This document shows positions 918-58,482 of a DNA stretch of 64,000 nucleotides, in pieces. The translations under genes were made by a program, and so were the position numbers. The number at the start of each line of letters is the position of its first letter. Positions within the stretch are counted from its first letter, which is position 1. The notes under the pieces are model-generated. The model saw only the letters and a list, made by a program, of their open reading frames with translations, made no database searches and was not told the origin of the DNA. The stretch is from Candidatus Nomurabacteria bacterium. GTDB taxonomy: Bacteria > Patescibacteriota > Minisyncoccia > Phycocordibacterales > UBA9973. The stretch is taken from contig JAHFNJ010000003.1 in the NCBI GenBank assembly GCA_023267375.1, positions 28,579-92,578 of the forward strand, read 5' to 3'.

Positions 918-959
<42 letters not shown>

Positions 960-1470: not shown

Positions 1471-1505
<35 letters not shown>

Positions 1506-3056: not shown

Positions 3057-3092
<36 letters not shown>

Positions 3093-16502: not shown

Positions 16503-17309
16503 TCACCTACCTATAGTTCGATAAAGTTTTGCACGTGAAAAGAAATATGAATGTTTCCTAAATAAGTACAGTAGACCAGCGAGATGCTTTAGTGCGAGTA
16601 ACGGCTTCCGGTAAGAAGCGCGCTGTGCATGATGGATGACAATAGCACGTGGACAAAAAATCACTTTGTAGCCCGCCTTCCAGACACGTATGCAAAAATC
16701 AACATCTTCTGGGGCATAAAAAATATGCTCGTCAAAAAACCCAACCTCCTTAAAAAGCTCCTTCTTCATACACCAGCACGCAGAAATACCGTAATCAGGA
16801 TACGTAGTGACATTTCCCTCGTACAACTCATCTCGCACGAGCGCGCCATGAAAAATTCCAAACAGTGAGTAACTAGCACGCAAGACCTTCGTCACAATAG
16901 TTGGAAATCGTTTTATAGATTCTTGTACAGATCCATCAGGGAAAATAATTTTTGGACAGATGATTCCCGGCATTTCATGCTTCCCTAGTTCCTCAATCAT
17001 TGCAGAGAGAGCGCCAGGAGTAGTTTCTGTATCCGCATCAATGCATATAACATACTCCCCTGTTGCCTGTGCGATGCCAACATTCCTTGGGTATGTGGTG
17101 CCTTTATTGCTCGTGTATTTTGTGAGATGAATTGACGCATTACTTGAATACGCTGTCTCAACAATAGAGACAGTACTGTCGGTTGATCCATTATCAAAGA
17201 TAAGAACTTCAGTCTCTAGCCCTGACGCCTTAGCATCTGACAACAAGCTATCGATACATTTTTTAATATACCGCTCGCTGTTCCACGTAAGAATAATGAT
17301 TGATATCAT
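16503..17309 (-). CDS. Glycosyltransferase family 2
   Basis: GT-A motifs 'ISIIILTWNSERYIKKCIDSLL…LIFDNGSTD…DADT'. Start trimmed to Met 'MISIIIL' to remove overlap with upstream gene. Confidence 0.75.
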   Translation of the reverse strand: MISIIILTWNSERYIKKCIDSLLSDAKASGLETEVLIFDNGSTDSTVSIVETAYSSNASIHLTKYTSNKGTTYPRNVGIAQATGEYVICIDADTETTPGALSAMIEELGKHEMPGIICPKIIFPDGSVQESIKRFPTIVTKVLRASYSLFGIFHGALVRDELYEGNVTTYPDYGISACWCMKKELFKEVGFFDEHIFYAPEDVDFCIRVWKAGYKVIFCPRAIVIHHAQRASYRKPLLALKHLAGLLYLFRKHSYFFSRAKLYRTIGR

Positions 17310-17325
17310 ACTCTGAAAGTATACC

Positions 17326-18234
17326 TTATGATTTACGAAAAAGACTCCGATAAAAAGTGGCTGCGATTCCAGATACATTCGCGAGTGTGCAAAGATAGGA
17401 AACGCCCATCATTTTTATAAGCGGATATGAAATATCTTTCCTTCCCCATTTTGTAATGAGCCCAGGCAATCGAAATGCGAGGATCGGCAAAAACAAACTC
17501 GCAATTCGTGCGCTAATCCAAAACACATTCTTACCTCTTCCCTGCCACACAGCTACACACCCCCGGCCAACACGAAAATGTTTTTCAAGTAATTCTTTAC
17601 AATTCCTTGTTGGATGAAATACCACAACCGAAGCGTCGTACACAAGGGATTTTCCACCTTTCCATGCATTATTTGTCCAAAGTGCATCTCCTCCCGAAAC
17701 CGCCGTATCAGGGAATAAACCAAGTTCTGTAAAAAGAGTCTTTGGTATAAAAACGTTCGCAGTCTGTGCCGAATGACGCAATGTAATAAATAACTCATTA
17801 TTTAAATTGATGAGCGAGTCGAGCAGTTCAGCACTTGTTTTTTTCTCAGAAAAAAGAAATTCTATTTTTCCCCCAACAATACCGCCTTGTTCTTGCGACA
17901 CCCGAGCAATGCCTCGAGAAATCCAATCAGGCTTTGCGACACAGTCGGCATCAGTAAAAGCAAGAATACTCCCCTTTGCAACTGCAATACCTCGATTTCT
18001 CGCCACATATGAATTGCGCGCTTTGCTTTCTTCAATACGCGTAACTGGGTATGCGGCTGCTATTGTGTTCGTGGCGTCAGTTGATCCATTATCAATAATA
18101 AGTATTTCGTACTTCTCTTTCGGATACTCTTGCGCCAGTAGAGACTCGATATTTTTCGCAATATAGTTCTCTCCGTTATATACAGGAACGACAACTGAAA
18201 CAAATGGCAATTCTTCATTAGACGACATGTTCAT
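17326..18234 (-). CDS. Glycosyltransferase family 2
   Basis: 'VSVVVPVYNGENYIAKNIESLLAQEYPKEKYEILIIDNGSTDAT…DADC'. Confidence 0.75.
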   Translation of the reverse strand: MNMSSNEELPFVSVVVPVYNGENYIAKNIESLLAQEYPKEKYEILIIDNGSTDATNTIAAAYPVTRIEESKARNSYVARNRGIAVAKGSILAFTDADCVAKPDWISRGIARVSQEQGGIVGGKIEFLFSEKKTSAELLDSLINLNNELFITLRHSAQTANVFIPKTLFTELGLFPDTAVSGGDALWTNNAWKGGKSLVYDASVVVFHPTRNCKELLEKHFRVGRGCVAVWQGRGKNVFWISARIASLFLPILAFRLPGLITKWGRKDISYPLIKMMGVSYLCTLANVSGIAATFYRSLFRKS

Positions 18235-19234
18235 GTTCTCGTGCGGTAATTTTTGTAAATAAATAATCGCGATTACACAACGTAATCAATGCTCCGACAA
18301 AAATAACAAATGATGATACAAGCACAATTGGAAGCGAGAGTACGAGTCGCCCAATTGATGTCCAACGTTCCCTGACGATGTAGTACGAGCGGAGGAAAAA
18401 TTTATATACTTTAAATGCAACAAAAAAACCAAGATTAAAAAAACGGCGAGCGAGAGAATATTTTTCAACGACCGTCCCGTCGGGTGAAAAATAAAAATCA
18501 GCTTTCACTATTTCGTCCGCGCCAAAAATGAGCATCCGGTACCACCAATCCCAAAAATTGCCAGGCGGGGCATGGTACCCTTTTGCATGGGGAGCCTGCA
18601 CAATAGAATAACCACGACATTTGAGTAACCGTATCCATTCGGCAATACTTGAACGATAGAGCGGCAGTTTCGTAAAAAACGGCACCGAAAGCATCACGTC
18701 TTTTTTAATAGCAAAATTATTCAAATAAAAATTCCGCGCAAAACGAGGATACGCATTGTTACTCGTGATGTTCGACATCCAGATCAGCTGAATAGCCATT
18801 GTATATATAGACACAACTCGTATCCGCGTCTCCCCCGCAACAATACTTGCACCCGGGGCCCACATAAAAGTGTAGAGCATATTTTCGAGCCATGTTTTGT
18901 CATACACAACATCCGAATCAGCAAATACAACAATGTTCCCCGTCGCACGTTCTGCCCCGCGCATTTTTGCTCCGGTATATTCAAGGTCCCCCGACTCTAC
19001 ACAAACAGCAGCCCAAGGATACTTCGTGTGTAAAAGAGTAATTGTTTCTGGCGATACATGACCACCGGCAATAAGCAGCACTTCTTTTGCTTGAGTAATC
19101 GGATAGGTCTGCTCTTTCAATGAATCGAGTGTCTGCTCAAGATCGGCGATCCCAGCCATGCCAAGATTCTCCGTTTCAACAACGATAGAAAAGCTAAGAC
19201 TCTCGAGCTGTTCCTTAGTAGGACGGTATTCCAT
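18218..19234 (-). CDS. Glycosyltransferase (GT-A-like) with C-terminal TM segment
   Basis: 338 aa; 'FSIVVETENLG…LDSLKEQTYPI…FADSDVVYD'; hydrophobic C-terminus. Confidence 0.6.
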   Translation of the reverse strand: MEYRPTKEQLESLSFSIVVETENLGMAGIADLEQTLDSLKEQTYPITQAKEVLLIAGGHVSPETITLLHTKYPWAAVCVESGDLEYTGAKMRGAERATGNIVVFADSDVVYDKTWLENMLYTFMWAPGASIVAGETRIRVVSIYTMAIQLIWMSNITSNNAYPRFARNFYLNNFAIKKDVMLSVPFFTKLPLYRSSIAEWIRLLKCRGYSIVQAPHAKGYHAPPGNFWDWWYRMLIFGADEIVKADFYFSPDGTVVEKYSLARRFFNLGFFVAFKVYKFFLRSYYIVRERWTSIGRLVLSLPIVLVSSFVIFVGALITLCNRDYLFTKITAREHEHVV

Positions 19235-19297: not shown

Positions 19298-19714
19298 ATG
19301 ACTTATGAAATAAATACTCAGGATGCCATCAGTGAGACGCTCGACGGCGAAACAATTGTTATAAACCTAAAGAGCGGAAATTACTACAGTTTAAATGAAA
19401 CTGGTACGCTCGTATGGACCTACATTGTCGAAAAGTACAGCACCGAATCCATGGCCGCAACCTTGGCAAGCCACTATGGCGCAGACACAAGTACTGTTGA
19501 AAAAGCTATTGCAGACTTTATCGAGACCTTACAAAAGGATTCGCTTATTCAGGAAACAACCCAAACAAATAACTCTCCAATACCTTCACCAACAACAGAG
19601 AAAAAATTGTTCGTTGCTCCAAAAATCGAAAAATACGAAGATATGCAGGAAATGATTATGGCTGACCCCGTACACGATGTTGATGAAATGGGCTGGCCTA
19701 ATTTGAAAAAGTAA
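19298..19714 (+). CDS. PqqD-family (RiPP-recognition-element-like) protein with ~65-aa C-terminal extension
   Basis: 'LDGETIVINLKSGNYYSLNETGTLVWTYIVEKYSTESMAATLASHYGADTSTVEKAIADFIETLQKDSLIQE' fits PqqD/RRE pattern; tail ends '…DVDEMGWPNLKK'. Confidence 0.7.
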   Translation: MTYEINTQDAISETLDGETIVINLKSGNYYSLNETGTLVWTYIVEKYSTESMAATLASHYGADTSTVEKAIADFIETLQKDSLIQETTQTNNSPIPSPTTEKKLFVAPKIEKYEDMQEMIMADPVHDVDEMGWPNLKK

Positions 19715-19718
19715 GCGT

Positions 19719-20399
19719 ATGGAACACCCCCTCATCTCTGTTATTATCCCAACGTTCAATACAGGGAAATACATATCGGAAGCAATTACTTCTGTCTTTG
19801 CACAAAAGTACCCGAACATAGAAATCATTGTTGTTGATGATGGCTCGACCGACAACACCCTCGAGGTACTTAAAACATTTGGTGACACCATAAAAGTCAT
19901 TTCTCAAAAAAATACCGGACCTGCAGCTGCGCGAAACACTGGATTGCGAAACGCACGAGGCACTATTGTTGGACTCCTCGATGCTGATGATATTTGGACA
20001 GATGACTGCATCGAGAGCTTGCTCCCCTACGCGCTTAGCGATGAGTACGACTTTGCTCGCGGCATTACCAGATATTTCAAAGATGAAAATGGTACCCGTA
20101 TCTTCACCGACAAACTCTGGATAGAAGTACAAATGGGAACAGCATTATACAAAAAAACATTTCTCGACAAAGTAGGACCGTTTGATGAGACGATGCACTA
20201 CGGCGAGGATATGGATTGGAATATGCGCATGCTCGATCTAGGTGGCAGAGAAAAAAGAGTTGAGAAGATAGTGCTCTCGTACCGCAGACACGACACGAAT
20301 ATGACAAATGATAAAGAGCGCACTAAAAATGGTCTCCTTGAAGCATTTCGAAAACGAATCGATCGGAAAAAGACACAAAAACTGCATGACAAACAGTAA
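19719..20399 (+). CDS. Glycosyltransferase family 2 (short GT-A-only)
   Basis: 'ISVIIPTFNTGKYISEAITSVFAQKYPNIEIIVVDDGSTDNT…LDADDIW'. Stop overlaps start of next gene. Confidence 0.8.
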   Translation: MEHPLISVIIPTFNTGKYISEAITSVFAQKYPNIEIIVVDDGSTDNTLEVLKTFGDTIKVISQKNTGPAAARNTGLRNARGTIVGLLDADDIWTDDCIESLLPYALSDEYDFARGITRYFKDENGTRIFTDKLWIEVQMGTALYKKTFLDKVGPFDETMHYGEDMDWNMRMLDLGGREKRVEKIVLSYRRHDTNMTNDKERTKNGLLEAFRKRIDRKKTQKLHDKQ

Positions 20400-21483
20400 G
20401 AATCAAACAAAACATTTAAGCACTGACAATTACACCATCGTGCGAAAGAACTATTTTGACACAATAGTTGTTCCTGCATTGTCATCACTGCAAAAAAAGA
20501 CAGAGCCGATCATAAAAAACTACATCATCGCAGGAAAAAAAGTGCACTTAGTATTCTACTCCCCTATTCTTTCAGAGAAGATGTCGCACGCCCTCGAACA
20601 CCATAGTGGATTTTCTGGCGACCAAGGAGATCTTACGGTTCATCTCTGGGACTCAATAACAACAGAAACTAAAATGATGTCCCCATGGAGCAAGCCCGAA
20701 TACTCAGATCGGCAAACCAACGCGCAAAATACAATTGGTGATGCACATTTTTTGGGGGTCTATCTCTTCGGCGAAGAAACACTCAACCTCTACAACAAAG
20801 AAAATAAAGTGGCCTATTTTTGGACACGCGATGCAAACGTACTGCCTGATTGGATAAGTGCCGCCCCACTACGTACCCTCTTGCACTGGTTTTTATCAGA
20901 CTACAATATTCACCTTGTGCATGGCGGCGTAGTCGCAAGTGGTGGTAACGCGATACTGCTTGGCGCAAAAGGCGGATCCGGAAAATCAACAACGGCACTC
21001 TCCTCATTGCTCTCTGGTATGGACTATCTTGCTGATGATTACGTGGCAATTGAGATCGGAGAAAAAAATATCGCCTATAGCTTATACAACTCAGTGAAGA
21101 TAACTCCGAACACACTGAATGTCTTTCCGGAACTCTCTGAAAAAATATGGAACAAAGAAACCGTTGGCGGCGAATTAGATCTCGGAAAAGCTATCGTCTT
21201 TATGTCGAAATTTTTTCCAAAACAAATGGTGGAAAAATCAGAGCTGGTCGCTATATGCATTCCCACAATCAAGAATGAGACAAAAATTGTTCCCGCCAGC
21301 AAGCTTGCCACAATGCTGGCGCTCGCACCAACCATCCTTTTCCAACTGCCGCTTGCATCAAGCTCAAAGATGTCCGACTTAAAGGAAATCATCGCTACAA
21401 CCCCCTGCTATTTCCTTGAATTAGGGCCCGAGATCCGCAAGGTTCCAGAGGTACTTCAAGATTTTTTAAAGCACGCCAAATAG
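20386..21483 (+). CDS. HPr kinase/phosphorylase-related P-loop kinase (HprK-related kinase)
   Basis: 'HLVHGGVVASGGNAILLGAKGGSGKSTTALSSLLSGMDYLADDYVAI' matches HprK C-terminal Walker-A region. Start set to ATG 20386, which overlaps the upstream stop by 14 nt. Confidence 0.7.
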   Translation: MTNSKNQTKHLSTDNYTIVRKNYFDTIVVPALSSLQKKTEPIIKNYIIAGKKVHLVFYSPILSEKMSHALEHHSGFSGDQGDLTVHLWDSITTETKMMSPWSKPEYSDRQTNAQNTIGDAHFLGVYLFGEETLNLYNKENKVAYFWTRDANVLPDWISAAPLRTLLHWFLSDYNIHLVHGGVVASGGNAILLGAKGGSGKSTTALSSLLSGMDYLADDYVAIEIGEKNIAYSLYNSVKITPNTLNVFPELSEKIWNKETVGGELDLGKAIVFMSKFFPKQMVEKSELVAICIPTIKNETKIVPASKLATMLALAPTILFQLPLASSSKMSDLKEIIATTPCYFLELGPEIRKVPEVLQDFLKHAK

Positions 21484-21489
21484 CATATA

Positions 21490-22206
21490 ATGGCAGGTAT
21501 GGAACAAAACCCCCTCGTGAGCGTTGTTATGCCTGTCTACAATGCCGAAAAGTACGTTGATGCGGCACTTCAAAGCGTTTTTGGCCAAACCTACAAGAAT
21601 CTTGAAGTAATTTGCGTCTACGATAAATCAACCGACAAGTCACTCGACAGGCTAAAATCTTATGGAGATAAAATCCATCTTAGAGAGAACGGCGAGAAAC
21701 TTGGCATCGGCGGAGCACGCAATAATGGCATCGAAATTGCACAGGGGGCATTTCTCGCGTTCATGGATGCCGACGATATTTGGGAGCCACAAAAAATCGA
21801 ACGGCAAATTGAACAGTTTATAAAAGACCCGACACTGGATGTCAGTTTCACCTACATGCAATGTTTCTTAAGCGAAGATATCCCTGAAGAGGTAAAAAAA
21901 ATTCGCTACTGTAACCCTGATCCAATGCCGGGATACCTCGCTGCTGCCGCAGTTGTAAAGACCACCTCATTTCACAAAGTTGGATTATTCAATCCAAAAT
22001 GGAGGGTTGGCGAGTTTGTTGATTGGTCAAAGCGAGCAAAGGAACTACATCTCAAAATGGATATCATACCAGAAACACTACTACGACGAAGAATCCACGA
22101 AACAAATACCGGCGTCACTGAACGTCCATCGAGGAATGATTACATCACGATTATGCGAGAATCTTTGCAGCGAAAAAAGAACAAGGATAAAGAACATGAC
22201 TCCTAA
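21490..22206 (+). CDS. Glycosyltransferase family 2 (short GT-A-only), paralog of 19719..20399
   Basis: 'VSVVMPVYNAEKYVDAALQSVFGQTYKNLEVICVYDKSTDKS…MDADDIW'. Confidence 0.8.
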   Translation: MAGMEQNPLVSVVMPVYNAEKYVDAALQSVFGQTYKNLEVICVYDKSTDKSLDRLKSYGDKIHLRENGEKLGIGGARNNGIEIAQGAFLAFMDADDIWEPQKIERQIEQFIKDPTLDVSFTYMQCFLSEDIPEEVKKIRYCNPDPMPGYLAAAAVVKTTSFHKVGLFNPKWRVGEFVDWSKRAKELHLKMDIIPETLLRRRIHETNTGVTERPSRNDYITIMRESLQRKKNKDKEHDS

Positions 22207-24595
22207 ACTACCATTCCCAAAAAGTTTCCCGACGAAAGAAGAAACCAAGTTTCTACAGATGCTCTTGTCGAACGATTCAGATTTTCCAAAACTCTGGAAG
22301 GAATGGAAGGACACTGTTGTTTGGGAAGAGCTCGATCCGGCCACTTCTCGATTGCTCCCACTCGCCTATTTGCGAATTAAGAAACTCAATATTACTGATG
22401 AAATTACTGCTCGCGTAAAAGGAATCTACAAATCCGCGTGGGTAAAAAATCAGCGGCTCCTGCATGTAGTAAAACAAGTGGCAGAAACCTGTGACAAAGA
22501 ACACATCCCACTCATGCTCTTGAAGGGCATGCCGCTCATCCTTGAAGTCTATCGCGATCCTGGTGCACGTTTTTTGGGCGATGCAGATATTTTGATTCCA
22601 CCAGAACATGGACCACGCATCATACAGCTATTGAAAAAGAGTGGCTGGAGCTATGCTCATCCATGGGTCGCCGACAATCACAACCCAGTACCGAGCGTCT
22701 TCACAGTAATTAAATCAACAGAACTTGTTGATCACATGGGAGTCGAAATGGACGTCCATTGGAATATTTTTGCGGCCAATCACGGCGTCACGCTTCCGCG
22801 CGTTTTTCTGTTGGGCAAGATGCCTACGTTTGCGTTCCGAGAATACTTCTGGAAACACACTATTCCGATGACGGTAGATGGTGTTCCCTGCAAGCGGCTA
22901 TCCAACGAAGACATGCTCATTCATATCATCGTGCACGGAGCCGAAGGTAACACCCACCGCGCACTCCGCTGGGTTACTGATGCGATAACAACGATCAACA
23001 CACTCCCTATCGACTGGGAGGTAGTTATCAAACACGCCGAGCAATTCGGGTTTGCGATAGAACTCAAATTGGGCTTTGCCTACATCACAAAACATTTTGA
23101 TACTCCGATTCCCGATTCATTCATGCAACAACTTTCCCTGCTCCCCATTACAAAAGCAAAGCTACAAAAATATTACAAAATTGCAAATACCGAACACTCG
23201 AGGCGCATCAACATCCTCGGAAATATTCCCCTGCTCTGGTATGCCTATTTTAAATTCGAACCAGGTGTCTCATTCCCAAAAAATATCTTTGGATTCTTTA
23301 CCTACCTTCGTAAATCGTGGGGGCTTGAAAGCTATCGGAAGGTCGTTGCCTTTGCGATACATCACTACAAACGAAAATTGGAAACAAAAGATCCGACATT
23401 ACTCGATGGCACAAAAAAAGCGTTCTTCGATAGCGCCTATATCATTTCGGGTAAAGCAGTGTCGTTCATGGCGTCATTTGCCGTTATTACCGTATTAAGT
23501 AGAGCACTCCCGCGCGAGACTGCCGGCTCATACAACTACATAATCGCCACACTTGCCATTGTGAGCATTACCACACTCCCCGGAATGAATAATGCTTTGA
23601 CGAGAGCGATCGCAAAAGGCAATCACGGCAGCCTCCCGCATATGCTCCGAAAACGCCTTACATGGGGAATACTCGGTTCCGTTATCGCACTCATTATCGG
23701 CGTAATCTCATGGGCACAAGGAAATACTGCTGTTGGCATTGCCTTTCTCGTTGCAGCGCCGTTTGTCCCCCTGACTGACACGTTCAGCACATTTGCACTC
23801 AATTACTGGCAAGGTAAAAAACGTTTTGATAAAAGTGCGCTTATGGGAGCACTGTACTATGTCTTGCTCGCCCTCCTCTCACTTCCTGTTATTATCTTTT
23901 CACACAACCTGATTATCATCGTCCTGGGTGTCATGATCGCCCAAACGGCCTCAGGATTGCTCATCTACAGAAGCATCAAAAAAGAATCGGGAGAACGAGA
24001 TCATGCGTCTGAAAAACTAGGAATACACCTTACCTTCATCCAGGCATTGCATACCATCGCAGCACAAGCAGACAAAATTATCATCTGGCATTTATTCGGC
24101 GCATCGTTCACTGCGATATATACATTTGCTTCAACTCCGGTTTCAAAAGCAAACCAAATGATTCCGATTGGCATTATCTCACTCCCCCATTTAAGCCAGC
24201 AAGAGTTTACTCCACCACTGAAACGTCAGATGCTCAAAAAAACCTTCGCACTCTTTTTGGTTTCGTTTCCCCTGACACTTGCCGTCATCCTTCTAGCACC
24301 ATTTTTATATAAAATCTTCTTCCCTTCATATCCAGAATCAATCAGATATTTTCAATTCTTAATGATGCCGGTCGCGCTCGCTCCGATGGCAATATTGAAA
24401 TCATCATTTACTGCATTCAATAAAACAAGAGAACTCTACCTGAGCGAGACGAGCGGAACGATTATACGGATACTGTTGATGCTTATCTTTGCTCTCTTCT
24501 TCGGACTATTCGGTATTGTCATAGGTATTCTCATTTCCGCCGTCATCGATTTATGCATAACACTACTACTTTTCACGCGCGCAAAAACAGTCTAG
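22196..24595 (+). CDS. Fusion protein: N-terminal NTP_transf_5-type nucleotidyltransferase plus C-terminal polysaccharide flippase (MOP/Wzx-like)
   Basis: N-terminal 'LLKGMPLILEVYRDPGARFLGDADILIPPEHGP' (PF14907-like); C-terminal half has ~12 predicted TM helices typical of Wzx/PST exporters. Start set to ATG 22196, which overlaps the upstream stop by 11 nt. Confidence 0.65.
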   Translation: MTPKLPFPKSFPTKEETKFLQMLLSNDSDFPKLWKEWKDTVVWEELDPATSRLLPLAYLRIKKLNITDEITARVKGIYKSAWVKNQRLLHVVKQVAETCDKEHIPLMLLKGMPLILEVYRDPGARFLGDADILIPPEHGPRIIQLLKKSGWSYAHPWVADNHNPVPSVFTVIKSTELVDHMGVEMDVHWNIFAANHGVTLPRVFLLGKMPTFAFREYFWKHTIPMTVDGVPCKRLSNEDMLIHIIVHGAEGNTHRALRWVTDAITTINTLPIDWEVVIKHAEQFGFAIELKLGFAYITKHFDTPIPDSFMQQLSLLPITKAKLQKYYKIANTEHSRRINILGNIPLLWYAYFKFEPGVSFPKNIFGFFTYLRKSWGLESYRKVVAFAIHHYKRKLETKDPTLLDGTKKAFFDSAYIISGKAVSFMASFAVITVLSRALPRETAGSYNYIIATLAIVSITTLPGMNNALTRAIAKGNHGSLPHMLRKRLTWGILGSVIALIIGVISWAQGNTAVGIAFLVAAPFVPLTDTFSTFALNYWQGKKRFDKSALMGALYYVLLALLSLPVIIFSHNLIIIVLGVMIAQTASGLLIYRSIKKESGERDHASEKLGIHLTFIQALHTIAAQADKIIIWHLFGASFTAIYTFASTPVSKANQMIPIGIISLPHLSQQEFTPPLKRQMLKKTFALFLVSFPLTLAVILLAPFLYKIFFPSYPESIRYFQFLMMPVALAPMAILKSSFTAFNKTRELYLSETSGTIIRILLMLIFALFFGLFGIVIGILISAVIDLCITLLLFTRAKTV

Positions 24596-24601
24596 TACTT
24601 T

Positions 24602-25039
24602 ATGAAAACACCCAAGAAAAAACAAAAAATAGTCGGCTTCACCTGTGGCGCATTTGACCTCACGCACGCTGGGCACTACCTCATGTTTAAGGAATGTAAA
24701 CGTCAGTGCGATACGCTCATTGTTGGATTACAAATAGATCCTTCGGTTGATCGTCCGAATAAAAACAAACCAATACAAAGCTTGAAAGAACGTAAAATAC
24801 AGCTCGCTGCGTGTAAGTACATTGATACGATTGTGACCTACAAAACAGAGAAAGGACTCCTCGCTCTTCTTAAAAAAATAAATCCAGACATTCGCTTTAT
24901 GGGGGCTGACTGGAAAGGAAAAGAAAATTACTCAAGAGACAGGCTCCCTGACATGAAAGTCATCTATAACAGTCGCAAACACACCTACTCATCAACAAAT
25001 CTGCGAAAACGCATCGTCGCAGCAGAGAAGAAAAACTAG
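24602..25039 (+). CDS. Cytidylyl/adenylyltransferase-like nucleotidyltransferase (TagD / HldE-domain-II family)
   Basis: 145 aa; 'VGFTCGAFDLTHAGHYLMFKECKRQCDTLIVGL' is the (H/T)xGH nucleotidyltransferase motif. Confidence 0.7.
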   Translation: MKTPKKKQKIVGFTCGAFDLTHAGHYLMFKECKRQCDTLIVGLQIDPSVDRPNKNKPIQSLKERKIQLAACKYIDTIVTYKTEKGLLALLKKINPDIRFMGADWKGKENYSRDRLPDMKVIYNSRKHTYSSTNLRKRIVAAEKKN

Positions 25040-26061
25040 CGCTCCTGATTCTTTTTGAGCTCCCATCCCCAAGCAGTTTTTACAATGTCTGCCAAAGAAT
25101 ACTTCGGCACCCACTGCAGTAGAGAAGCCGCTTTACTCGCGTCAGCGTATGCGATTGGCATGTCCCCCGCTCTTCGTGCTCCAACCTCGTAGGGAACCTT
25201 TATATTATTTTCTGTTTCAAATGCACTGATTATTTCCTTAACCGAAATACCCTTTCCTGTTCCAATATTAAAAACATCATAGAATGAAGAAGTTGCAGCA
25301 TCAAGATGCTCAAGTGCGGAAACATGCGCCTTCGCCACATCGGCAACATGGAGATAGTCTCGCACACAGGTGCCATCTGGGGTTGCATAATCGTCACCAA
25401 AAACAGTAAACGGTTTTCCAGTCTTCACCGCATCCGTGACCACCGAAACAAGATTTTCTGGCGCCTTATCTGTATTTTCCCCAAGCAAACCTGATGGATG
25501 TGCTCCTGCTGGATTGAAGTATCGCAAAGTGATTGCCTTACAACCCTCTGTATTTTTTACGTAGTCTTCAAGAAGCTGTTCGCCGAGTAATTTTGTCATA
25601 CCATAGGGAGTTCCAGGTTTTATCGGACTTATTTCGGCATACGGAGGCACCGTTTCAGGATCATAGACCGCACACGTTGAAGAAAATATAAAATGAGAAG
25701 TCTTACATAGTTTAGAAATAAGAAGCGCTCCTAGTAATCCATCAACATTATTTTGGTAATATGCCAGCGGGTTTTTTAAAGAATCTGGAACTGACTTAAA
25801 CGCCGCGAGATGGATAATTGCATCAAATGTCTTCCCCTGAAACACCTCTTCGAGTTTTTTGTAATCACACAAATCGATCTCAATATTTTCAATCCTCTTG
25901 CCAGTTATTGTTTCAATTCGCTCAAAAACCAACGGGTTAGAATTTGAAAAATTATCAATCGAAACAACATCGTACCCTGCAGCAACAAGCTCCACGATTG
26001 TATGGCTTCCAATGTACCCCGCCCCGCCAGTGACGAGAATTTTTTTACGAGTGTTTATCAT
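25036..26061 (-). CDS. galE: UDP-glucose 4-epimerase
   Basis: 341 aa; 'KILVTGGAGYIGSHTIVELVAAGYDVVSIDNFSNS', YxxxK, full-length SDR extended family. Confidence 0.85.
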   Translation of the reverse strand: MINTRKKILVTGGAGYIGSHTIVELVAAGYDVVSIDNFSNSNPLVFERIETITGKRIENIEIDLCDYKKLEEVFQGKTFDAIIHLAAFKSVPDSLKNPLAYYQNNVDGLLGALLISKLCKTSHFIFSSTCAVYDPETVPPYAEISPIKPGTPYGMTKLLGEQLLEDYVKNTEGCKAITLRYFNPAGAHPSGLLGENTDKAPENLVSVVTDAVKTGKPFTVFGDDYATPDGTCVRDYLHVADVAKAHVSALEHLDAATSSFYDVFNIGTGKGISVKEIISAFETENNIKVPYEVGARRAGDMPIAYADASKAASLLQWVPKYSLADIVKTAWGWELKKNQER

Positions 26062-26150: not shown

Positions 26151-27044
26151 TTAATAAAACTCGGTTACAACGACAACCCCAGAGCTACCGTTACCACCAC
26201 TTTTTATCGCACCATTACAATTGCCACCACTACCACCAGAGCCAAAATTAGAAGCTGGTAAACCATTAGCAGCAACAGCAATAGATCGTGATGGAGCACC
26301 ACCACCAAAGAAGGAAGAACCTCCACAATAAGTTGGTTCAGCTGAACCAACGGCTCCACCACTACTTTGCCCGCTGATATTTAAATCACCACCAACACCG
26401 ATACCTCCCTGAGATCCATCAGAATTTTTAACAGCAGCAGTCTGCCCAACTCCTCCTTTTCCACCAGTAGCAGAGCAATGAGCACCGAATGAAGAAGTTC
26501 CCCCATCACCGCCAGCTGTTATTGGAGCTCCTCCAGTACCACCGATCCCAACTGAAACAGTTTCAGTCGCGCTAAGTGAACTAGCAGCAATAATTTTTCG
26601 GGAATAACCAGCACCGGCTCCAGCGCCACCACCATATGACTGACATCCGCCGCCGCCTCCGCCTCCGCCAACCAATTCGACGAGTATATACTTAACACCA
26701 ACAGGTTTTGTCCATAGTGTATCTGCTGTATAAACATGGATAGTTGGAACTTGGGTCGCACTAACCGTCCCACACATGGTCAGCCAGACTGATCCGGTGT
26801 AATAGTTAAGACAGTTTTCATCGAGATTATAGATAATGAGTCCTTGGGACAATTTCGGAAAGGCATTCCGTTGGGCCGTCGTAACACGAGGGGCAAGAAA
26901 CCCCTTGTCGATCGCCGAAGCATCGAGTATTGCAGAACTATCTGGTTTTGCTCCAGTAGCATTAACACTGACACCTTGAGCATATACGGGAACCGTATAC
27001 AACGAGCAATACAATAAGAAAGAAAGTACAATAATCTTTTTCAT
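26151..27044 (-). CDS. Secreted glycine-rich repeat protein
   Basis: 297 aa; signal peptide; N-terminal 'KGFLAPRVTTAQRNAFP…GLIIYNLDENCLNYYTGSVW'; long Gly-rich C-terminal region including GGGGGGGG. Confidence 0.6.
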   Translation of the reverse strand: MKKIIVLSFLLYCSLYTVPVYAQGVSVNATGAKPDSSAILDASAIDKGFLAPRVTTAQRNAFPKLSQGLIIYNLDENCLNYYTGSVWLTMCGTVSATQVPTIHVYTADTLWTKPVGVKYILVELVGGGGGGGGCQSYGGGAGAGAGYSRKIIAASSLSATETVSVGIGGTGGAPITAGGDGGTSSFGAHCSATGGKGGVGQTAAVKNSDGSQGGIGVGGDLNISGQSSGGAVGSAEPTYCGGSSFFGGGAPSRSIAVAANGLPASNFGSGGSGGNCNGAIKSGGNGSSGVVVVTEFY

Positions 27045-27155: not shown

Positions 27156-29060
27156 CTACTGAGATCCAGTTATTCTCTTAAACTCCGCGAGATACGCACT
27201 TGATGCGGAGATATTCGGATTCAACTCATACGCTTTCGTAAAATACTCTTTCGCTTTTTCGAATTCCCTCGTATAGGTAAAGAGCTGTCCATAAATCCAG
27301 TAACCACGCGGATCAGCCGGGGCAAGCGCCACTGCTCTGTCGGTATAAGATAACGCACGAGCAATAGTCTCTTCTGAGTAGTCACCACTTATTGAAATAT
27401 CTGCATTCATGAGATTTGCGCATGCAAGCCAGAGACGATGATTGTAGGTGGCAGTATCAGCAACCAAATCAACTTGCTGCAAGAGTTCGAGCGTCTGCTC
27501 GTGAACACGCGAAGCTTTCACAGGGTCAGTCTGTAATTCTTTCATTTTCGATTTTACGTCTTTGTATTTAAAGTCAACAATATAGCCGACATCACTGCCA
27601 TTCCCCATTGAAGATATGGCAGTGAGGGTACTTGGATCATTCCCTAGAACACCAAGCATCTTTCTTGCTTTGTGTGCCGGCTGGTGGACAAAAAAGATAT
27701 AGGCAGGAATGAGGATAATAAAACAAGCGCTGGCAATAAAGGTGCTCTGCTCTCGTAAATCACGAGGTAGCTTCTTTGGGTCGAGCACCACAGGCAACTG
27801 TCCAGCCAGCACGCCATAGAAGGCAAAGAGGGCAACATACGTCGTCGGGGTATCGAACACCACCATATCTTGCAAAAAATAAGCGAAAAACATTCCGACA
27901 AAGAGAGAGAGTTCCCCTTTCGAGAATCTGTCTTTTTTAAAGAGTAGATATGGCAGGTATAAAAATAGCGAAAGAAACAAAAGATACAGAAGACCTCCGG
28001 GAACACCCCCCGCAACAAAAAATTCAAGGACGACATTGTGTGGGCGATCAATGTCTGGTTCATTAGTAATTCCAGGCTCAAGGATTTTTGGGTCAAAATA
28101 TTTGGAAAAGACAATATTAAAATTATCGAGCCCCCAACCAAAAAGCGGTCGTTCTTGTATCCCTTGATAAGCCGTATGCCAAAAAATGAGGCGTCCACCA
28201 TGTACGGCAGTGCTGAATTTTTGATGCAGGCGTGAACTTGGAATCAAAACAAGGATTCCCAAAACGAGAACACTGATGATACTTATAGCAATGAGTGAGA
28301 AGCCAATAATTTTCTTTTTCTTATTTAGACTTAACGCAAGCCATAAGAAGCAAGCAAAAATACTTCCAATAAATACTGAAGCGGCGGCGGCCCGTGCGCC
28401 AATCATAAAAAGTACACTCACAAAAAGAATGCTGCCAAGCAGATACCATAGTTTCGTGCGCCAGTATTGAGCACTGAAGAAAAGAATACTGCCGGCAAAA
28501 AAAGCAAACACGAGGTATGCACCAGTATATGAAGAATTGCCCGTGAGGCCTCCTCGTCGAGCTGCTTGGCCTAAAACCTCTGGAAAGAATGTCGACAAAG
28601 CAAGAACAACTCCAGACAGAAAGAACGCGGTAAGTACTTTTTTAAGAAAACCAACTCCTTCTTTCCTTGCAAGCGAAGCAACCATGAGTCCAAAGAAAAA
28701 ACAGTGATATAAAAAGATAAGTCCGGTACCACGCAAAAACGATGACCAGAAAGCTGTATTAGGATTTTGAGAAAAAGCTGCACTTACTGAAAGCCATACC
28801 AAAAGAAGTAATGGTACCGTAAACACGAGAAGCTGCTTTTTCGAGAGCCGATAGCGATTATTAACGGCAAGCAGATAGACCCAAAACACGAGCATCGCTT
28901 CCACAAGCCCCATAAAGAAAAAGCTTTTTGAAGTTGTGAACGGAAATAGTCGATGTGGGATGACAATCAACGGTACCGCAAAAATCCCAAGAAGTGCCAA
29001 GAAGGCAAAGATATCTTCCATAAACCCCCCGCGACTGCTGTATCTACTGTTCTGTGGCAT
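27156..29060 (-). CDS. O-antigen-ligase-like polytopic membrane protein with C-terminal TPR repeats
   Basis: 634 aa; ~12 TM helices with Wzy_C-like loop region; C-terminal TPR-like 'KAKEYFTKAYELNPNISASSAYLAEF'. Confidence 0.6.
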   Translation of the reverse strand: MPQNSRYSSRGGFMEDIFAFLALLGIFAVPLIVIPHRLFPFTTSKSFFFMGLVEAMLVFWVYLLAVNNRYRLSKKQLLVFTVPLLLLVWLSVSAAFSQNPNTAFWSSFLRGTGLIFLYHCFFFGLMVASLARKEGVGFLKKVLTAFFLSGVVLALSTFFPEVLGQAARRGGLTGNSSYTGAYLVFAFFAGSILFFSAQYWRTKLWYLLGSILFVSVLFMIGARAAAASVFIGSIFACFLWLALSLNKKKKIIGFSLIAISIISVLVLGILVLIPSSRLHQKFSTAVHGGRLIFWHTAYQGIQERPLFGWGLDNFNIVFSKYFDPKILEPGITNEPDIDRPHNVVLEFFVAGGVPGGLLYLLFLSLFLYLPYLLFKKDRFSKGELSLFVGMFFAYFLQDMVVFDTPTTYVALFAFYGVLAGQLPVVLDPKKLPRDLREQSTFIASACFIILIPAYIFFVHQPAHKARKMLGVLGNDPSTLTAISSMGNGSDVGYIVDFKYKDVKSKMKELQTDPVKASRVHEQTLELLQQVDLVADTATYNHRLWLACANLMNADISISGDYSEETIARALSYTDRAVALAPADPRGYWIYGQLFTYTREFEKAKEYFTKAYELNPNISASSAYLAEFKRITGSQ

Positions 29061-58467: not shown

Positions 58468-58482
58468 ATTTTTTTCTTGCAT

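What the first reader, a model, noticed from the sequence alone, without database searches (positions are those of the whole stretch)
19298..24595. PqqD-like protein, GT2, HPr-kinase-related kinase, GT2, NTP_transf_5::flippase module embedded in the glycosylation locus
What the sequence shows: five co-directional genes that are tightly packed, two pairs with overlapping stop and start codons, encode the following.
1. A PqqD-family protein of the peptide-recognition-element type.
2. A short GT-A glycosyltransferase.
3. A protein with the HPr-kinase C-terminal P-loop block 'HGGVVASGGNAILLGAKGGSGKSTTALSSLL…ADDYVAI'.
4. A paralogous short GT2.
5. An NTP_transf_5 'uncharacterised nucleotidyltransferase' fused to a 12-TM MOP/Wzx-type exporter.

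What is known: the trio HprK-related kinase, PqqD and NTP_transf_5 is the signature of the poorly understood 'HPr-rel-A'-type systems. The same trio accompanies phosphorylated lasso-peptide gene clusters.

What is missing and what I infer: there is no lasso cyclase, no leader peptidase and no obvious precursor gene. Instead the trio is wired to two minimal GT2s and a flippase inside a cell-wall polysaccharide locus. Short GT2s are also the fold used by peptide S/O-glycosyltransferases of glycocin-type systems. This could represent an undescribed pathway for a peptide- or protein-linked, or phosphorylated, glycoconjugate in a reduced-genome bacterium.
Basis: partly seen in the sequence, partly recalled or inferred. 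Interest (0 to 1): 0.85.

Follow-up and report, generated by a model that had tools for sequence, protein, structure and literature searches.

The report
Widespread peptide-chaperone, kinase, glycosyltransferase cassette
Five tightly packed genes form a cassette found in more than a dozen bacterial phyla: a peptide-binding chaperone carrying its own built-in 'leader' tail, a kinase, small glycosyltransferases and a nucleotidyltransferase (here fused to a glycan flippase). It resembles the machinery that phosphorylates and glycosylates lasso and LPP peptides, but it has no precursor peptide or peptidase, so its product is unknown.

Summary
Window 19298-24595 (+) holds five near-contiguous genes: a PqqD/RRE protein, GT2a, an HprK/PEPCK-fold P-loop kinase, GT2b, and an NTP_transf_5::Wzx fusion. 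A cytidylyltransferase gene follows 6 nt downstream.

The genes are not scattered in relatives. Probing species-representative genomes with the kinase alone gave 37 loci with enough flank. Of these, 34 carry the PqqD, 37 small GT2s, 31 NTP_transf_5 and 30 all three, across more than 12 phyla. Natural RRE::kinase, kinase::GT2(::GT2) and NTP_transf_5::Wzx fusions exist.

New here: the PqqD is a lasso-B1-type RRE with a conserved C-terminal tail, [F/Y/W]xxPx[L/I/V]…DM..LL..DP[IV]H[DE]V…GWP. Its start matches the lasso/LPP leader motif. AlphaFold2 places it confidently against the RRE, and its aromatic residue covaries with an RRE helix-3 residue.

No cyclase, peptidase or separate precursor appears in the window or in 60+ loci.

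Thresholds for the HPr-rel-A models are not met. The closest published system is the Bacillota LPP family (2026) and phosphorylated lasso peptides.

Best reading: a leader-in-cis phospho-glycosylation module, here wired into a Wzx/Wzy surface-glycan locus. The phosphate acceptor is unresolved. I rate it a new variant of a known kind.

The parts
19298..19714 (+). PqqD-family RRE protein (138 aa) of the lasso-B1 type, with a C-terminal extension
   Evidence: Pfam PqqD 53.5 bits. The best NCBIfam match is lasso_PqqD_Bac, 57.8 bits, below its cut-off of 80. The AF2 model has pLDDT 86. Foldseek top hits are TbiB1 with leader (5v1v, 5v1u) and lasso B1 (6jx3), target TM 0.90-0.93. BsfB1 matches the family HMM at 5.6e-17.
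19610..19699 (+). Conserved tail of the RRE protein (aa 105-134): FVAPKI EKYEDMQEMIMA DPVHDVDEMGWP. It consists of a leader-like [F/Y/W]xxPx[L/I/V] motif, a short helix and the invariant DP[IV]H…GWP segment.
   Evidence: Alignments A1 and A3. Column frequencies over 60 homologues are P108 93%, D115 97%, D123 97%, P124 97%, H126 90% and G132-W133-P134 87-88%. AF2 gives strand 110-113 and helix 116-122 at pLDDT 82-92, with 123-138 disordered. Residue 105 covaries with RRE residue 70, Fisher p = 2e-8.
19719..20399 (+). GT2a, a small soluble GT-A glycosyltransferase (226 aa, DxD 'DADD')
   Evidence: Glycos_transf_2 E = 5e-40. The best full-length solved relative is 6p61, a 228-aa glycosyltransferase, E = 3e-26. 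It forms its own orthologue group across loci.
20386..21483 (+). HprK/PEPCK-fold P-loop kinase (365 aa). The P-loop GGSGKST is aa 196-202 (nt 20971-20991).
   Evidence: There are 906 homologues. The precomputed Pfam label on homologues is PF27840 'ScmC', weak or faint.
21490..22206 (+). GT2b, a paralogous small GT-A glycosyltransferase (238 aa)
   Evidence: Glycos_transf_2 E = 1e-33. It is 32% identical to GT2a. It is the GT2 type kept in almost every locus.
22196..23380 (+). NTP_transf_5 (Pol-beta-type nucleotidyltransferase fold) half of the fusion protein
   Evidence: PF14907 127 bits, aa 50-301. G111, D131 and others are conserved at 85% or more in 42 homologues, within the signature 'KGMP…GDADIL'. 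No solved relative was found by sequence.
23381..24595 (+). Wzx-type (Polysacc_synt, MOP superfamily) flippase half of the fusion protein
   Evidence: PF01943 55 bits. About 11 hydrophobic segments. The fusion is seen in only 2-4 representatives out of 1.84 billion. The closest flippase relatives are stand-alone 410-aa proteins, and one of them sits beside the same cassette (L069).
24602..25039 (+). Cytidylyl/adenylyltransferase-like gene, co-directional, 6 nt after the fusion. Probably the same operon, but not part of the conserved cassette.
   Evidence: CTP_transf_like E = 1e-15. rfaE_dom_II scores 81 bits and g3p_cytidyltrns 70 bits, both below their cut-offs. It is absent from the cassette in other loci.
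15000..16487 (+). Context: polyprenyl glycosylphosphotransferase, the initiating enzyme of a lipid-linked glycan
   Evidence: Bac_transf E = 3e-63. TIGR03025 scores 340 bits, above its cut-off of 295.6.
16503..19234 (-). Context: three divergently transcribed GT2 genes
   Evidence: The same arrangement is seen in relatives L069 and L070.
25036..26061 (-). Context: UDP-glucose 4-epimerase GalE
   Evidence: TIGR01179 scores 364 bits, above its cut-off of 262.
27156..29060 (-). Context: Wzy_C (O-antigen ligase / polymerase / O-oligosaccharyltransferase family) membrane protein with a C-terminal TPR
   Evidence: Wzy_C E = 4e-16 plus TPR. A Wzy_C gene also lies next to the cassette in L069 and in the P0156 locus.

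Best explanation
The five genes are one copy of an autonomous, horizontally mobile cassette. Its parts are an RRE-with-tail, an HprK/PEPCK-fold kinase, one to five small GT2s and an NTP_transf_5. The cassette is an evolutionary relative of the RRE-kinase-NTP-transferase set that phosphorylates and then glycosylates lasso peptides and the linear polyphosphorylated peptides (LPPs) of Bacillota.

Its distinguishing feature is that the leader is built in. The RRE protein carries in cis a lasso/LPP-type [F/Y/W]xxPx[L/I/V] motif. This motif docks on the protein's own winged-helix domain. It holds out a flexible, almost invariant segment (DM..LL..DP[IV]H[DE]V…GWP) towards the partner enzymes.

I propose that this self-leadered adaptor nucleates and activates a kinase-GT2 complex. 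The complex therefore needs neither a leader-bearing precursor nor a leader peptidase. The proposed steps are:
1. The kinase makes a phosphate (possibly oligophosphate) ester on a leaderless acceptor.
2. NTP_transf_5 caps that phosphate with the first sugar, or with a nucleotide.
3. The GT2s extend the glycan.
4. An exporter takes the product out.

In this genome the NTP_transf_5 is fused to the locus's only Wzx flippase. The operon sits among a phosphoglycosyltransferase, further GT2s, GalE and a Wzy_C/TPR ligase-like protein. So the product most likely enters, or decorates, a lipid-linked surface glycan that is flipped and then ligated outside the cell.

Shown: gene order, domains and folds, intact catalytic motifs, synteny, the fusions, the tail and its predicted cis-docking, and the absence of a cyclase, a peptidase and a precursor.

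Inferred: the order of the reactions, the adaptor role of the tail and the nature of the acceptor.
For: Operon packing. Domains.

Synteny:
- Synteny was seen in Deltaproteobacteria, Uhrbacteria, Pacebacteria and others.
- 61 species-representative loci were found with the kinase profile alone.
- Of the 37 loci with enough flank, 34 carry the RRE, 32 the tail, 37 GT2s and 31 NTP_transf_5.

Physical coupling through fusions:
- RRE-tail::kinase (L057).
- kinase::GT2 (L010, L023, L056, P0019).
- kinase::GT2::GT2 (L031).
- NTP_transf_5::Wzx (window, P0156, P0157).

The RRE and its tail:
- The RRE is of the lasso-B1 type.
- The tail motif equals the [Y/W]xxPx[L/V/I/F/A] motif recognised by discrete lasso and LPP RREs (PMC13381572).
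- AF2 places it confidently and gives a beta-strand at residues 110-113.
- Tyr at tail position 105 goes with Asp/Glu/Gln at helix-3 position 70 in 14 of 18 sequences. Phe does so in 5 of 61. This echoes the H-bonded Tyr described for LPP RREs.

Catalytic motifs are intact in the kinase, the NTase and the GT2s.

Experimental precedent:
- BsfB1 accelerates BsfK.
- LppK and PsmK phosphorylate Ser.
- PsmN adds hexose to the phosphate.

No conserved extra family or small ORF was found in 60+ loci. None was found in the window either.

Exporters and glycan context:
- Exporters vary: an ABC half-transporter in 10-12 loci and Wzx in CPR relatives.
- Three CPR loci share the Wzx/Wzy_C context.
- Accessory genes are glycan-type: GT4, sulfotransferase, SDR and methyltransferase.
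Against: - No acceptor has been identified.
- Every characterised relative of the trio acts on a ribosomal peptide bound in trans by the RRE. A non-substrate 'adaptor' tail is unprecedented in nature.
- Cis-docking rests on one AF2 monomer model whose coordinates I could not inspect, plus covariation that is not corrected for phylogeny.
- The kinase resembles BsfK and HprK only over about 50 residues around the P-loop. Its chemistry may therefore differ.
- PsmN's chemistry is itself unsettled, and LppN was inactive in a heterologous host.
- Most loci (roughly 80%) have no exporter in the cassette.
- The polysaccharide context is specific to the CPR lineage and is absent from minimal loci such as L005.
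Confidence: 0.42

Rival explanations
1. The RRE protein is itself the precursor or scaffold. It is a natural RRE-precursor fusion whose tail is leader plus core. The enzymes would modify the presented DP[IV]H[DE]V…GWP segment. The modification could be non-canonical phosphorylation of His or Asp followed by sugar addition, or chemistry at the invariant Asp-Pro bond. The segment might then be released.
For: - The layout mimics a lasso or LPP precursor. The motif Pro lies 15-16 residues before the invariant Asp-Pro. Pro lies at -14 in lasso precursors and about -13 in LPP precursors.
- The distal segment is the most conserved part of the protein and is disordered in the model.
- The tail is kept even when the RRE is fused to the kinase.
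- No other peptide candidate appears in 60+ loci.
- ABC exporters of the peptide/MsbA type are present in 10-12 loci.
- One locus (L072) has an in-frame stop that separates an 88-aa RRE from a 45-aa tail ORF.
Against: - The window's tail has no Ser or Thr after the motif, and no hydroxyl residue is conserved in the family.
- LppK does not accept Thr or Tyr.
- No peptidase is conserved.
- The residues after GWP vary in length and sequence, which excludes C-terminal chemistry.
- A Gemmatimonadota variant replaces IHDVDExGWP with P[ML]PGL.
- The other apparent stand-alone tail peptides are contig-edge fragments or frameshifts in error-prone assemblies.
- The GT2s look like sugar-to-sugar polysaccharide enzymes.
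Confidence: 0.28
2. This is a classical trans-acting RiPP system of the LPP type. A leader-bearing precursor encoded elsewhere in the genome displaces the weakly bound cis tail. It is then phosphorylated on Ser, glycosylated and exported. The tail only stabilises the otherwise unstable free RRE.
For: - All characterised relatives work this way.
- LppB is insoluble without its peptide, and PbaB1 folds fully only on binding. A cis placeholder would therefore be useful.
- Phe instead of Tyr or Trp in most tails could mean lower affinity.
Against: - No conserved small ORF lies near any of 60+ cassettes.
- The window has no candidate small ORF in its intergenic gaps.
- No leader peptidase (SpI, B2 or C39 type) is linked anywhere.
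- The distal tail motif is too conserved for a mere placeholder.
Confidence: 0.12
3. The locus is a member of Haft's 'HPr-rel-A' system, or a decayed lasso-peptide cluster that lost its cyclase and precursor. Alternatively it is just polysaccharide genes that happen to lie together.
For: The same three Pfam families occur together. There are weak matches to TIGR04352 and TIGR04353.
Against: - Scores are far below the curated cut-offs: 27.8 against 200 and 18.2 against 35.
- Catalytic motifs are intact, and the cassette is conserved without a cyclase in more than 12 phyla.
- No Asn-synthase-like or transglutaminase-like family is found among neighbours.
- The fusions exclude chance adjacency.
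Confidence: 0.04

Closest known systems
LPP (linear polyphosphorylated peptide) gene clusters of Bacillota (Popov et al., Nat Commun 2026, PMC13381572)
   Same: Both have a discrete lasso-type RRE, an HprK-like kinase and an uncharacterised NTP transferase. Neither has a macrolactam cyclase. Both use a [Y/W]xxPx[L/V/I] recognition motif. Both often lie inside polysaccharide loci and include an exporter. The products are expected to be phosphorylated and glycosylated.
   Different: LPP clusters have a separate 35-200 aa precursor (YxxPxVLxHQxIxFETxxS, with phospho-Ser3) and an SpI-type leader peptidase. Both are absent here. In this cassette the recognition motif is fused to the RRE itself. One to five small GT2s are core genes. 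The exporter is optional (ABC) or is a Wzx. The distribution covers more than 12 phyla rather than Bacillota alone. The kinase is similar only around the P-loop.
Tailoring set of phosphorylated lasso peptides (paeninodin PadeK, pseudomycoidin PsmK/PsmN, Bradymonas BsfK/BsfB1/BsfN; PMC9266682, PMC10368454)
   Same: The same three protein types are present. B1 (the RRE) accelerates the kinase. The NTP-transferase-like PsmN adds hexose to the phosphoserine. The RRE fold and sequence are closest to lasso B1 (TbiB1 TM 0.91; BsfB1 5.6e-17).
   Different: This cassette has no cyclase (C), no B2 peptidase and no precursor (A). It adds GT2s and a cis leader-like tail.
HPr-rel-A system (TIGR04352 HprK-related kinase A, TIGR04353 PqqD_rel_X, with a PF14907 neighbour)
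   Same: It has the same three superfamilies in one neighbourhood, and its function is equally unknown.
   Different: Both equivalog models score far below their cut-offs. I could not inspect that system's loci. Whether it has a tail or GT2s is unknown.
Wzx/Wzy-dependent surface-glycan loci (O-antigen, capsule, protein O-glycosylation)
   Same: The surrounding genes match: an initiating phosphoglycosyltransferase, GT2s, GalE, a Wzx domain and a Wzy_C protein.
   Different: Such loci do not normally contain an RRE, an HprK-fold kinase or an NTP_transf_5. The Wzx is not normally fused to a cytoplasmic enzyme.
Engineered leader-fused ('ConFusion') RiPP enzymes, and leader-independent pseudomycoidin synthesis (PMC6993621; the former recalled from memory)
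   Same: The concept is shared: a leader supplied in cis or dispensed with, which removes the need for a leader on the substrate and for a leader peptidase.
   Different: Those are laboratory constructs or an exception in one pathway. Here it would be a natural, ancient and widespread arrangement. This is a functional analogy only and was not tested.

Membership tests
PqqD / RiPP recognition element (PF05402) | Profile match above the Pfam gathering score | tested here: met
   53.5 bits against 23.4, aa 18-84 covering profile positions 1-67 of 67
PqqD / RiPP recognition element (PF05402) | Winged-helix fold (three strands plus three helices) like the discrete lasso B1 proteins | tested here: met
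   AF2 pLDDT 86. Foldseek matches TbiB1 5v1v/5v1u and 6jx3 at E = 1e-5 to 1e-3, target TM 0.90-0.93.
HPr kinase/phosphorylase family (PF07475, TIGR00679) | Profile match above the curated cut-off | tested here: not met
   PF07475 scores 17.8 bits against 33.3. TIGR00679 scores 16.7 against 240. Only the P-loop block aligns.
HPr kinase/phosphorylase family (PF07475, TIGR00679) | P-loop kinase fold of the HprK/PEPCK superfamily, with the His, the GxSGxGKS/T loop and the Asp-Asp | tested here: met
HPr-rel-A system | Kinase meets TIGR04352 (HprK_rel_A) | tested here: not met
   27.8 bits against a cut-off of 200
HPr-rel-A system | PqqD protein meets TIGR04353 (PqqD_rel_X) | tested here: not met
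   18.2 bits against a cut-off of 35. lasso_PqqD_Bac scores much higher, 57.8 bits.
HPr-rel-A system | NTP_transf_5 gene in the neighbourhood | tested here: met
   PF14907 at 127 bits in the same operon
LPP (linear polyphosphorylated peptide) cluster | Archaeal-type signal peptidase I (SipW-like) leader peptidase | tested here: not met
   No peptidase family was found among the window ORFs scanned or among conserved neighbours in 60+ loci.
LPP (linear polyphosphorylated peptide) cluster | Separate precursor with an N-terminal YxxPxVLxHQxIxFETxxS motif and a phospho-acceptor Ser | tested here: not met
   There is no intergenic room in the operon. No candidate small ORF was found in the window's intergenic gaps. 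No conserved small-ORF family was found across loci. The motif occurs only on the RRE protein, and without the Ser.
LPP (linear polyphosphorylated peptide) cluster | Discrete RRE, HprK-like kinase and NTP transferase encoded together | tested here: met
   I could not check whether LppN belongs to PF14907, because no sequence was held.
LPP (linear polyphosphorylated peptide) cluster | MsbA-like ABC exporter | tested here: not met
   The window has a Wzx domain instead. An ABC_membrane+ABC_tran exporter is present in 10-12 related loci.
Lasso peptide biosynthetic cluster | Asn-synthetase-like macrolactam cyclase (C) and transglutaminase-like leader peptidase (B2) | tested here: not met
   Neither was found in the window or among neighbour families of 60+ loci.
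Glycocin-type peptide S/O-glycosyltransferases (SunS family, TIGR04195) | Profile match above the cut-off | tested here: not met
   GT2b scores 16.9 bits against 350. GT2a has no match among the 25 best listed. The best solved relatives are chondroitin and heparosan synthase domains and the 228-aa GT 6p61.
Wzx/Wzy-dependent glycan assembly locus (the context) | Initiating polyprenyl-phosphate glycosylphosphotransferase, a Wzx flippase, a Wzy_C-family protein and glycosyltransferases together | tested here: met
   TIGR03025 scores 340 bits, above 295.6. Polysacc_synt scores 55 bits, above 28.2. Wzy_C scores 59.5 bits, above 31.7, and three further GT2s are present.
Known anti-phage defence systems (PADLOC) | Any of the five proteins matches a defence-system model | tested here: not met
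   No match at E <= 0.01

The most novel reading that the evidence does not exclude
The RRE protein is a natural RRE-precursor fusion. After the leader-like motif has clamped onto its own RRE, the invariant Asp-Pro bond is the peptidase-free processing or activation site. This bond lies where the leader/core junction lies in lasso and LPP precursors. The near-universal P[IV]H[DE]V…GWP peptide, or the newly exposed Asp, would then be phosphorylated on a non-hydroxyl residue, capped by NTP_transf_5 and glycosylated. The result would be a conserved phospho-glyco-peptide (cofactor-like, signal-like or a glycan primer) made by bacteria of more than a dozen phyla, including CPR.
Probability: 0.12. 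Interest if true: 0.9.

Novelty: new variant of a known kind. Interest (0 to 1): 0.7.

Why it matters
RRE-dependent pathways are defined by a leader-bearing precursor. A widespread cassette in which the recognition motif is fused to the RRE, with no precursor or peptidase, would show one of two things. Either RiPP machinery has been re-used as a leader-independent (possibly non-peptide) phospho-glycosylation device, or a whole class of self-priming RRE-precursor proteins has been overlooked because genome-mining tools demand a cyclase or a small precursor ORF.

The finding extends the RRE / HprK-like kinase / NTP-transferase trio, whose end product is still unknown even in LPPs. It takes the trio from Bacillota to more than 12 phyla. 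It supplies tractable hosts: Aestuariivirga litoralis KCTC 52945, Anabaena sp. UHCC 0187 and a Crinalium PCC 9333 plasmid.

The obligatory GT2s and the NTP_transf_5::Wzx fusion are concrete clues. They could help settle what NTP_transf_5 enzymes do, and why these systems sit in capsule loci. For CPR bacteria the cassette points to an unusual phosphate-linked decoration of the cell surface.

Tried and rejected
1. Position 114 of the tail as a phosphosite. It is T/S in 61% and D/E in 23% of sequences, which looked like a phosphosite with phosphomimetic replacements. I rejected this. The residue set (T, S, D, E, N) fits an N-cap of the predicted helix 116-122. The window's own protein has Glu there yet keeps an intact kinase.

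2. Stand-alone tail peptides. A profile of the tail found 168 short proteins, but the search returned only proteins of 77 aa or less. Those inspected are contig-edge fragments, start-codon miscalls that still include RRE helix 3, or frameshifted or IS-disrupted genes in error-prone long-read assemblies. Only L072 has a clean in-frame stop. This is not enough to claim split systems.

3. A separate precursor.
- The operon has no intergenic room.
- A regex search of intergenic small ORFs in the window found nothing convincing.
- Clustering of 1297 intergenic small ORFs from about 70 loci gave only compositional or antisense artefacts.

4. A radical SAM/SPASM partner. It lies next to the cassette in the L002 lineage and in L074 only, so it is not a conserved partner.

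5. Defence system. No PADLOC match.

6. ABC exporter type as a clue to the cargo. The exporter matches PCAT1, ComA, Sav1866 and MsbA equally well, at about 1e-50 to 1e-53. This is uninformative.

7. Fold search of the RRE model against afdb50. The library was unavailable.

8. First tail-profile search.

9. Sequence comparison with LppK and LppN. Not possible, because no sequences were held. BsfK and BsfB1 were taken from PMC10368454 instead.

Full report
**1. The observation**

Window 19298-24595 carries five co-directional ORFs on the + strand.
- Junction sequences show 4-nt and 6-nt gaps and two start/stop overlaps. Kinase ATG 20386 overlaps the GT2a stop at 20397-20399. Fusion ATG 22196 overlaps the GT2b stop at 22204-22206.
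- Pfam gives PqqD (53.5 bits), Glycos_transf_2 twice (E = 5e-40 and 1e-33), and NTP_transf_5 (127 bits, aa 50-301) together with Polysacc_synt (55 bits, aa 413-656) in one 799-aa protein.
- Hpr_kinase_C reaches only a sub-threshold 17.8 bits on the quoted P-loop block.
- A sixth gene, 24602-25039 (cytidylyl/adenylyltransferase-like), follows after 6 nt.
- No sigma-70-like promoter or terminator excess is seen inside the block.

The only soft point, the kinase, is firmed up in section 2.

**2. The kinase**

- The 365-aa protein has 906 homologues at E <= 1e-3, mostly unnamed and many from Patescibacteria.
- A 30-sequence alignment shows invariant or nearly invariant H179, G196-G-S-G-K-S-T202 and D217-D218.
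- Its profile hits HprK/P crystal-structure sequences at E = 1e-6 over the catalytic His, the P-loop and the Asp-Asp.

It is thus a two-domain member of the HprK/PEPCK P-loop kinase superfamily.
- It is not a member of PF07475, TIGR00679, TIGR04352 or TIGR04355 by their thresholds.
- Homologues carry weak or faint precomputed hits to a newer Pfam family, PF27840 'ScmC'. That family is not in the local library.
- BsfK, an experimentally proven lasso-precursor Ser kinase, matches the family HMM only around the P-loop (33.7 bits). That is no closer than HprK itself.

**3. Synteny and fusions**

Neighbourhoods of five distant homologues show the same set of genes:
- Deltaproteobacteria HGW-13: PqqD-kinase-GT2-NTP_transf_5.
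- Uhrbacteria: PqqD-GT2-kinase-GT2-NTP_transf_5, flanked by unrelated genes.
- Pacebacteria: the same, with an ABC exporter inserted.
- Another genome, beside ribonucleotide reductase genes.

A scan of one genome per species with the kinase profile returned 61 loci. They come from Patescibacteria, Chloroflexota, Alpha-, Beta-, Gamma- and Deltaproteobacteria, Actinomycetota, Cyanobacteria, Acidobacteriota, Verrucomicrobiota, Planctomycetota, Bacteroidota, Gemmatimonadota and Armatimonadota.

I built HMMs from the window proteins and scanned six-frame ORFs.
- Of 37 loci with at least 3 kb upstream and 6 kb downstream, 34 have the PqqD and 32 have its tail.
- All 37 have one to five small GT2s, 31 have NTP_transf_5, and 30 have all three partners.

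Rosetta-stone fusions exist:
- RRE-tail::kinase (L057).
- kinase::GT2 (L010, L023, L056, P0019).
- kinase::GT2::GT2 (L031).
- NTP_transf_5::Wzx (window, P0156, P0157).

A copy sits on a mobilizable plasmid of Crinalium epipsammum PCC 9333. RefSeq names its genes only generically there. The cassette is a real, autonomous, mobile unit.

**4. What else travels with it**

Clustering of all other ORFs around the cassettes found no further universal family. Recurrent accessories are:
- GT4/GT1-type glycosyltransferases, in 13 loci.
- One orthologous ABC_membrane+ABC_tran half-transporter, in 10-12 loci.
- Short-chain dehydrogenases, in 6 loci.
- Sulfotransferases, SMP-30/gluconolactonase, an FkbM methyltransferase and an ATP-grasp protein, in fewer loci.

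No Asn-synthetase-like cyclase, transglutaminase-like B2, signal peptidase or other peptidase recurs.

**5. The RRE and its tail**

This is the main new observation.

The PqqD domain:
- Its best NCBIfam match is lasso_PqqD_Bac, 57.8 bits against a cut-off of 80.
- Its model (pLDDT 86) is closest to TbiB1 and another lasso B1 protein, both solved with their leader peptides (TM 0.90-0.93).
- BsfB1 matches the family HMM over the whole domain, E = 5.6e-17.

The tail:
- Lasso B1 proteins have 85-100 residues. These proteins have about 140.
- After a variable Ser/Thr/Pro-rich linker comes a tail conserved from CPR to Proteobacteria.
- Over 60 homologues the consensus is [F 57% / Y 25% / W 7%]-x-x-P(93%)-x-[L/I/V]-x-x-[Y/F/H]-x-D(97%)-[M/L]-x-x-[L/M]-L-L-x-D(97%)-P(97%)-[I/V]-H(90%)-[D/E]-V-x-x-x-G-W-P. 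It is followed by 0-15 variable residues.
- A Gemmatimonadota-type variant keeps everything up to Asp-Pro and then reads P[ML]PGL.

Evidence that the tail docks on its own RRE:
- The first six positions are the [Y/W]xxPx[L/V/I/F/A] motif that discrete lasso and LPP RREs recognise in their leaders (PMC13381572; YxxPxL in PMC10368454).
- AlphaFold2 places residues 101-120 with pLDDT 82-92. It predicts a beta-strand at 110-113 and a helix at 116-122, and leaves 123-138 disordered.
- The aromatic residue covaries with helix-3 residue 70. Tyr goes with Asp/Glu/Gln in 14 of 18 sequences, from at least seven phyla. Phe does so in 5 of 61. Fisher p = 2e-8, not corrected for phylogeny.
- This parallels the hydrogen-bonded Tyr described for LPP and most lasso RREs.

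I conclude, with moderate confidence, that the tail docks in cis as a built-in leader. The Asp-Pro…GWP segment would then be the part presented to partner enzymes.

Two further points:
- In the natural RRE::kinase fusion the tail is retained between the two domains.
- BsfB1 has no tail.

**6. Is there a precursor?**

- The window operon has no room for one.
- A search of small ORFs in the window's intergenic gaps for the motif found nothing credible.
- Clustering of 1297 intergenic small ORFs from about 70 loci gave only artefacts.
- A profile of the tail alone retrieved 168 short proteins. Those examined are fragments at contig ends, mis-started calls that still contain RRE helix 3, or frameshifted or IS-disrupted genes in error-prone assemblies.
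- One locus (L072) has a clean in-frame stop between an 88-aa RRE and a 45-aa tail ORF. This is noted but not relied upon.

So the tail is, for practical purposes, always fused. No trans precursor is linked.

**7. The acceptor problem**

- Characterised relatives phosphorylate Ser. LppK rejects Thr and Tyr.
- The window's tail after the motif (KIEKYEDMQEMIMADPVHDVDEMGWPNLKK) has no Ser or Thr. No hydroxyl residue is conserved in the family.
- Position 114 (T/S/D/E/N) is best read as a helix N-cap.
- The GT2s are ordinary small GT-A enzymes with DxD. Their best solved relatives are polysaccharide synthase domains and an uncharacterised 228-aa GT. The SunS-type model is not met.
- NTP_transf_5 keeps a Pol-beta-type 'G…DxD' signature and has no solved relative by sequence.
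- Its one studied relative, PsmN, is required for adding hexose to phosphoserine. It is unsettled whether it acts directly or via nucleotidylation. LppN was silent in a heterologous host, and the authors suspect a missing partner.

Here GT2s are obligatory partners, and that may be the missing piece.

**8. This genome's context**

- The cassette lies in a roughly 20-kb glycan locus bounded by housekeeping genes: L10/L12, FtsK, RecA, EF-P and aminoacyl-tRNA synthetases.
- The locus holds a polyprenyl glycosylphosphotransferase (TIGR03025, above cut-off), three divergent GT2s, GalE (above cut-off), a Gly-rich protein and a Wzy_C+TPR membrane protein.
- It is flanked by two large PG_binding_1 proteins.
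- Syntenic CPR relatives have the same cassette. One has a stand-alone Wzx (46% identical to the window's flippase half), two sulfotransferases and Wzy_C, followed by FtsK (L069/L070). Another has the fused NTP_transf_5::Wzx next to GT4s and Wzy_C (P0156 locus).
- Among 1.84 billion representatives, only two proteins (P0156, P0157) align over the full length of the fusion. Two more (P0218, P0255) may be fusions. Everything else is a separate ~400-aa NTase or ~410-aa flippase.
- Outside this lineage no Wzx accompanies the cassette.

The fusion of a cytoplasmic NTase to the locus's only Wzx argues that, in this organism, the NTase step is coupled to flipping of a lipid-linked glycan.

The organism is probably a Patescibacteria/CPR bacterium. 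This is an inference from the names of the nearest homologues and from the unlinked 23S rRNA.

**9. Comparison with what is known**

The closest published system is the LPP family (PMC13381572).
[quoted passage not shown] It lies in capsule loci of Bacillota, and its final product and function are unknown.
- Phosphorylated lasso peptides share the RRE, kinase and NTase.

The present cassette shares the trio and the recognition motif. It fails the defining LPP features 'separate precursor' and 'SpI peptidase', and the lasso features 'cyclase' and 'B2'. It also fails the HPr-rel-A thresholds. It adds obligatory GT2s and the cis leader-like tail. I therefore file it as a new variant of a known kind and not as a member of any of these families. 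No paper in the searchable library describes it.

**10. Verdict**

That this is a genuine, conserved, uncharacterised cassette related to the LPP and lasso tailoring machinery is well supported (about 0.85).

How it works is inferred.
- I favour (0.42) a self-leadered adaptor model. The RRE-tail assembles and activates a kinase-GT2-NTase line that builds a phosphate-linked glycan on a leaderless acceptor. Here the product is passed to the fused Wzx and the surrounding Wzy-type pathway.
- The main rival (0.28) is that the tail itself is the substrate or scaffold, possibly processed at the invariant Asp-Pro.
- A classical trans precursor encoded elsewhere (0.12) and the trivial readings (0.04) are less likely.
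- The remaining probability goes to mechanisms I have not thought of.

Noticed in passing
window 54943-58530 (-): A 1195-aa isoleucyl-tRNA-synthetase-like protein (tRNA-synt_1, Anticodon_1) carries a complete His_Phos_1 (histidine phosphatase superfamily) domain. The domain is inserted at aa 546-712, between the two halves of the catalytic domain.
   Followed up: no
window 224-3598 (-): A 23S rRNA gene (505-3598) is about 170 nt longer than the Rfam model. It is followed by tRNA-Ile(GAT) at 224-298. No 16S or 5S gene lies next to it within the window.
   Followed up: no
window 11289-14804 (-) and 29136-31148 (-): Two large PG_binding_1 proteins bracket the glycan locus. One has chitobiase/Fn3-associated domains and the other is very Ser/Thr/Asp-rich. 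They are candidate acceptors for the Wzy_C/TPR ligase-like protein.
   Followed up: no
window 26151-27044 (-): A secreted-looking Gly_rich_2 domain protein (297 aa) lies between GalE and the Wzy_C/TPR gene. Its role in the locus is unknown.
   Followed up: no
L031 4660-7227; L057 8801-10723; L023 9884-11692: Natural fusions are present: kinase::GT2::GT2 (855 aa, Bacteroidales), RRE-tail::kinase (640 aa, Pirellulales) and kinase::GT2 (602 aa, Verrucomicrobiae). They would be useful for structure prediction of the complex.
   Followed up: partly
L071 (NC_019735.1, Crinalium epipsammum PCC 9333 plasmid pCRI9333.04) 5896-17248: A cassette variant lies on a mobilizable plasmid. It carries an FkbM methyltransferase, a second nucleotidyltransferase, a TPR protein, SMP-30/gluconolactonase and an ABC exporter, next to a group II intron.
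   Followed up: partly
L072 6680-7138: An in-frame TAA in the linker splits an 88-aa RRE from a 45-aa ORF that encodes just the tail (MSNVPYAPPALETYTDMQELLLLDPIHDVDETGWP…). The rest of the cassette looks intact. It could be a true split system or a sequencing error.
   Followed up: partly
L002 13881-15065 (-) and L074 13017-14091 (+): A radical SAM/SPASM maturase gene lies directly beside the cassette in a Deltaproteobacterium and in one other metagenomic contig. It is not conserved elsewhere.
   Followed up: partly
L069 6223-7960 (-): In the closest syntenic CPR relative, two sulfotransferase genes sit between NTP_transf_5 and the stand-alone Wzx. This is exactly where the two genes are fused in the window. 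Sulfotransferases also occur in the Halioglobus cassettes.
   Followed up: no
L045, L052, L054, L061 (PqqD homologues): A tail variant in Gemmatimonadota and one unclassified genome keeps YxxPxLxx[YF][ST]DMxxLLxLDP. It replaces [IV]H[DE]V…GWP with P[ML]PGL. NTP_transf_5 hits in these loci are weak or absent.
   Followed up: partly
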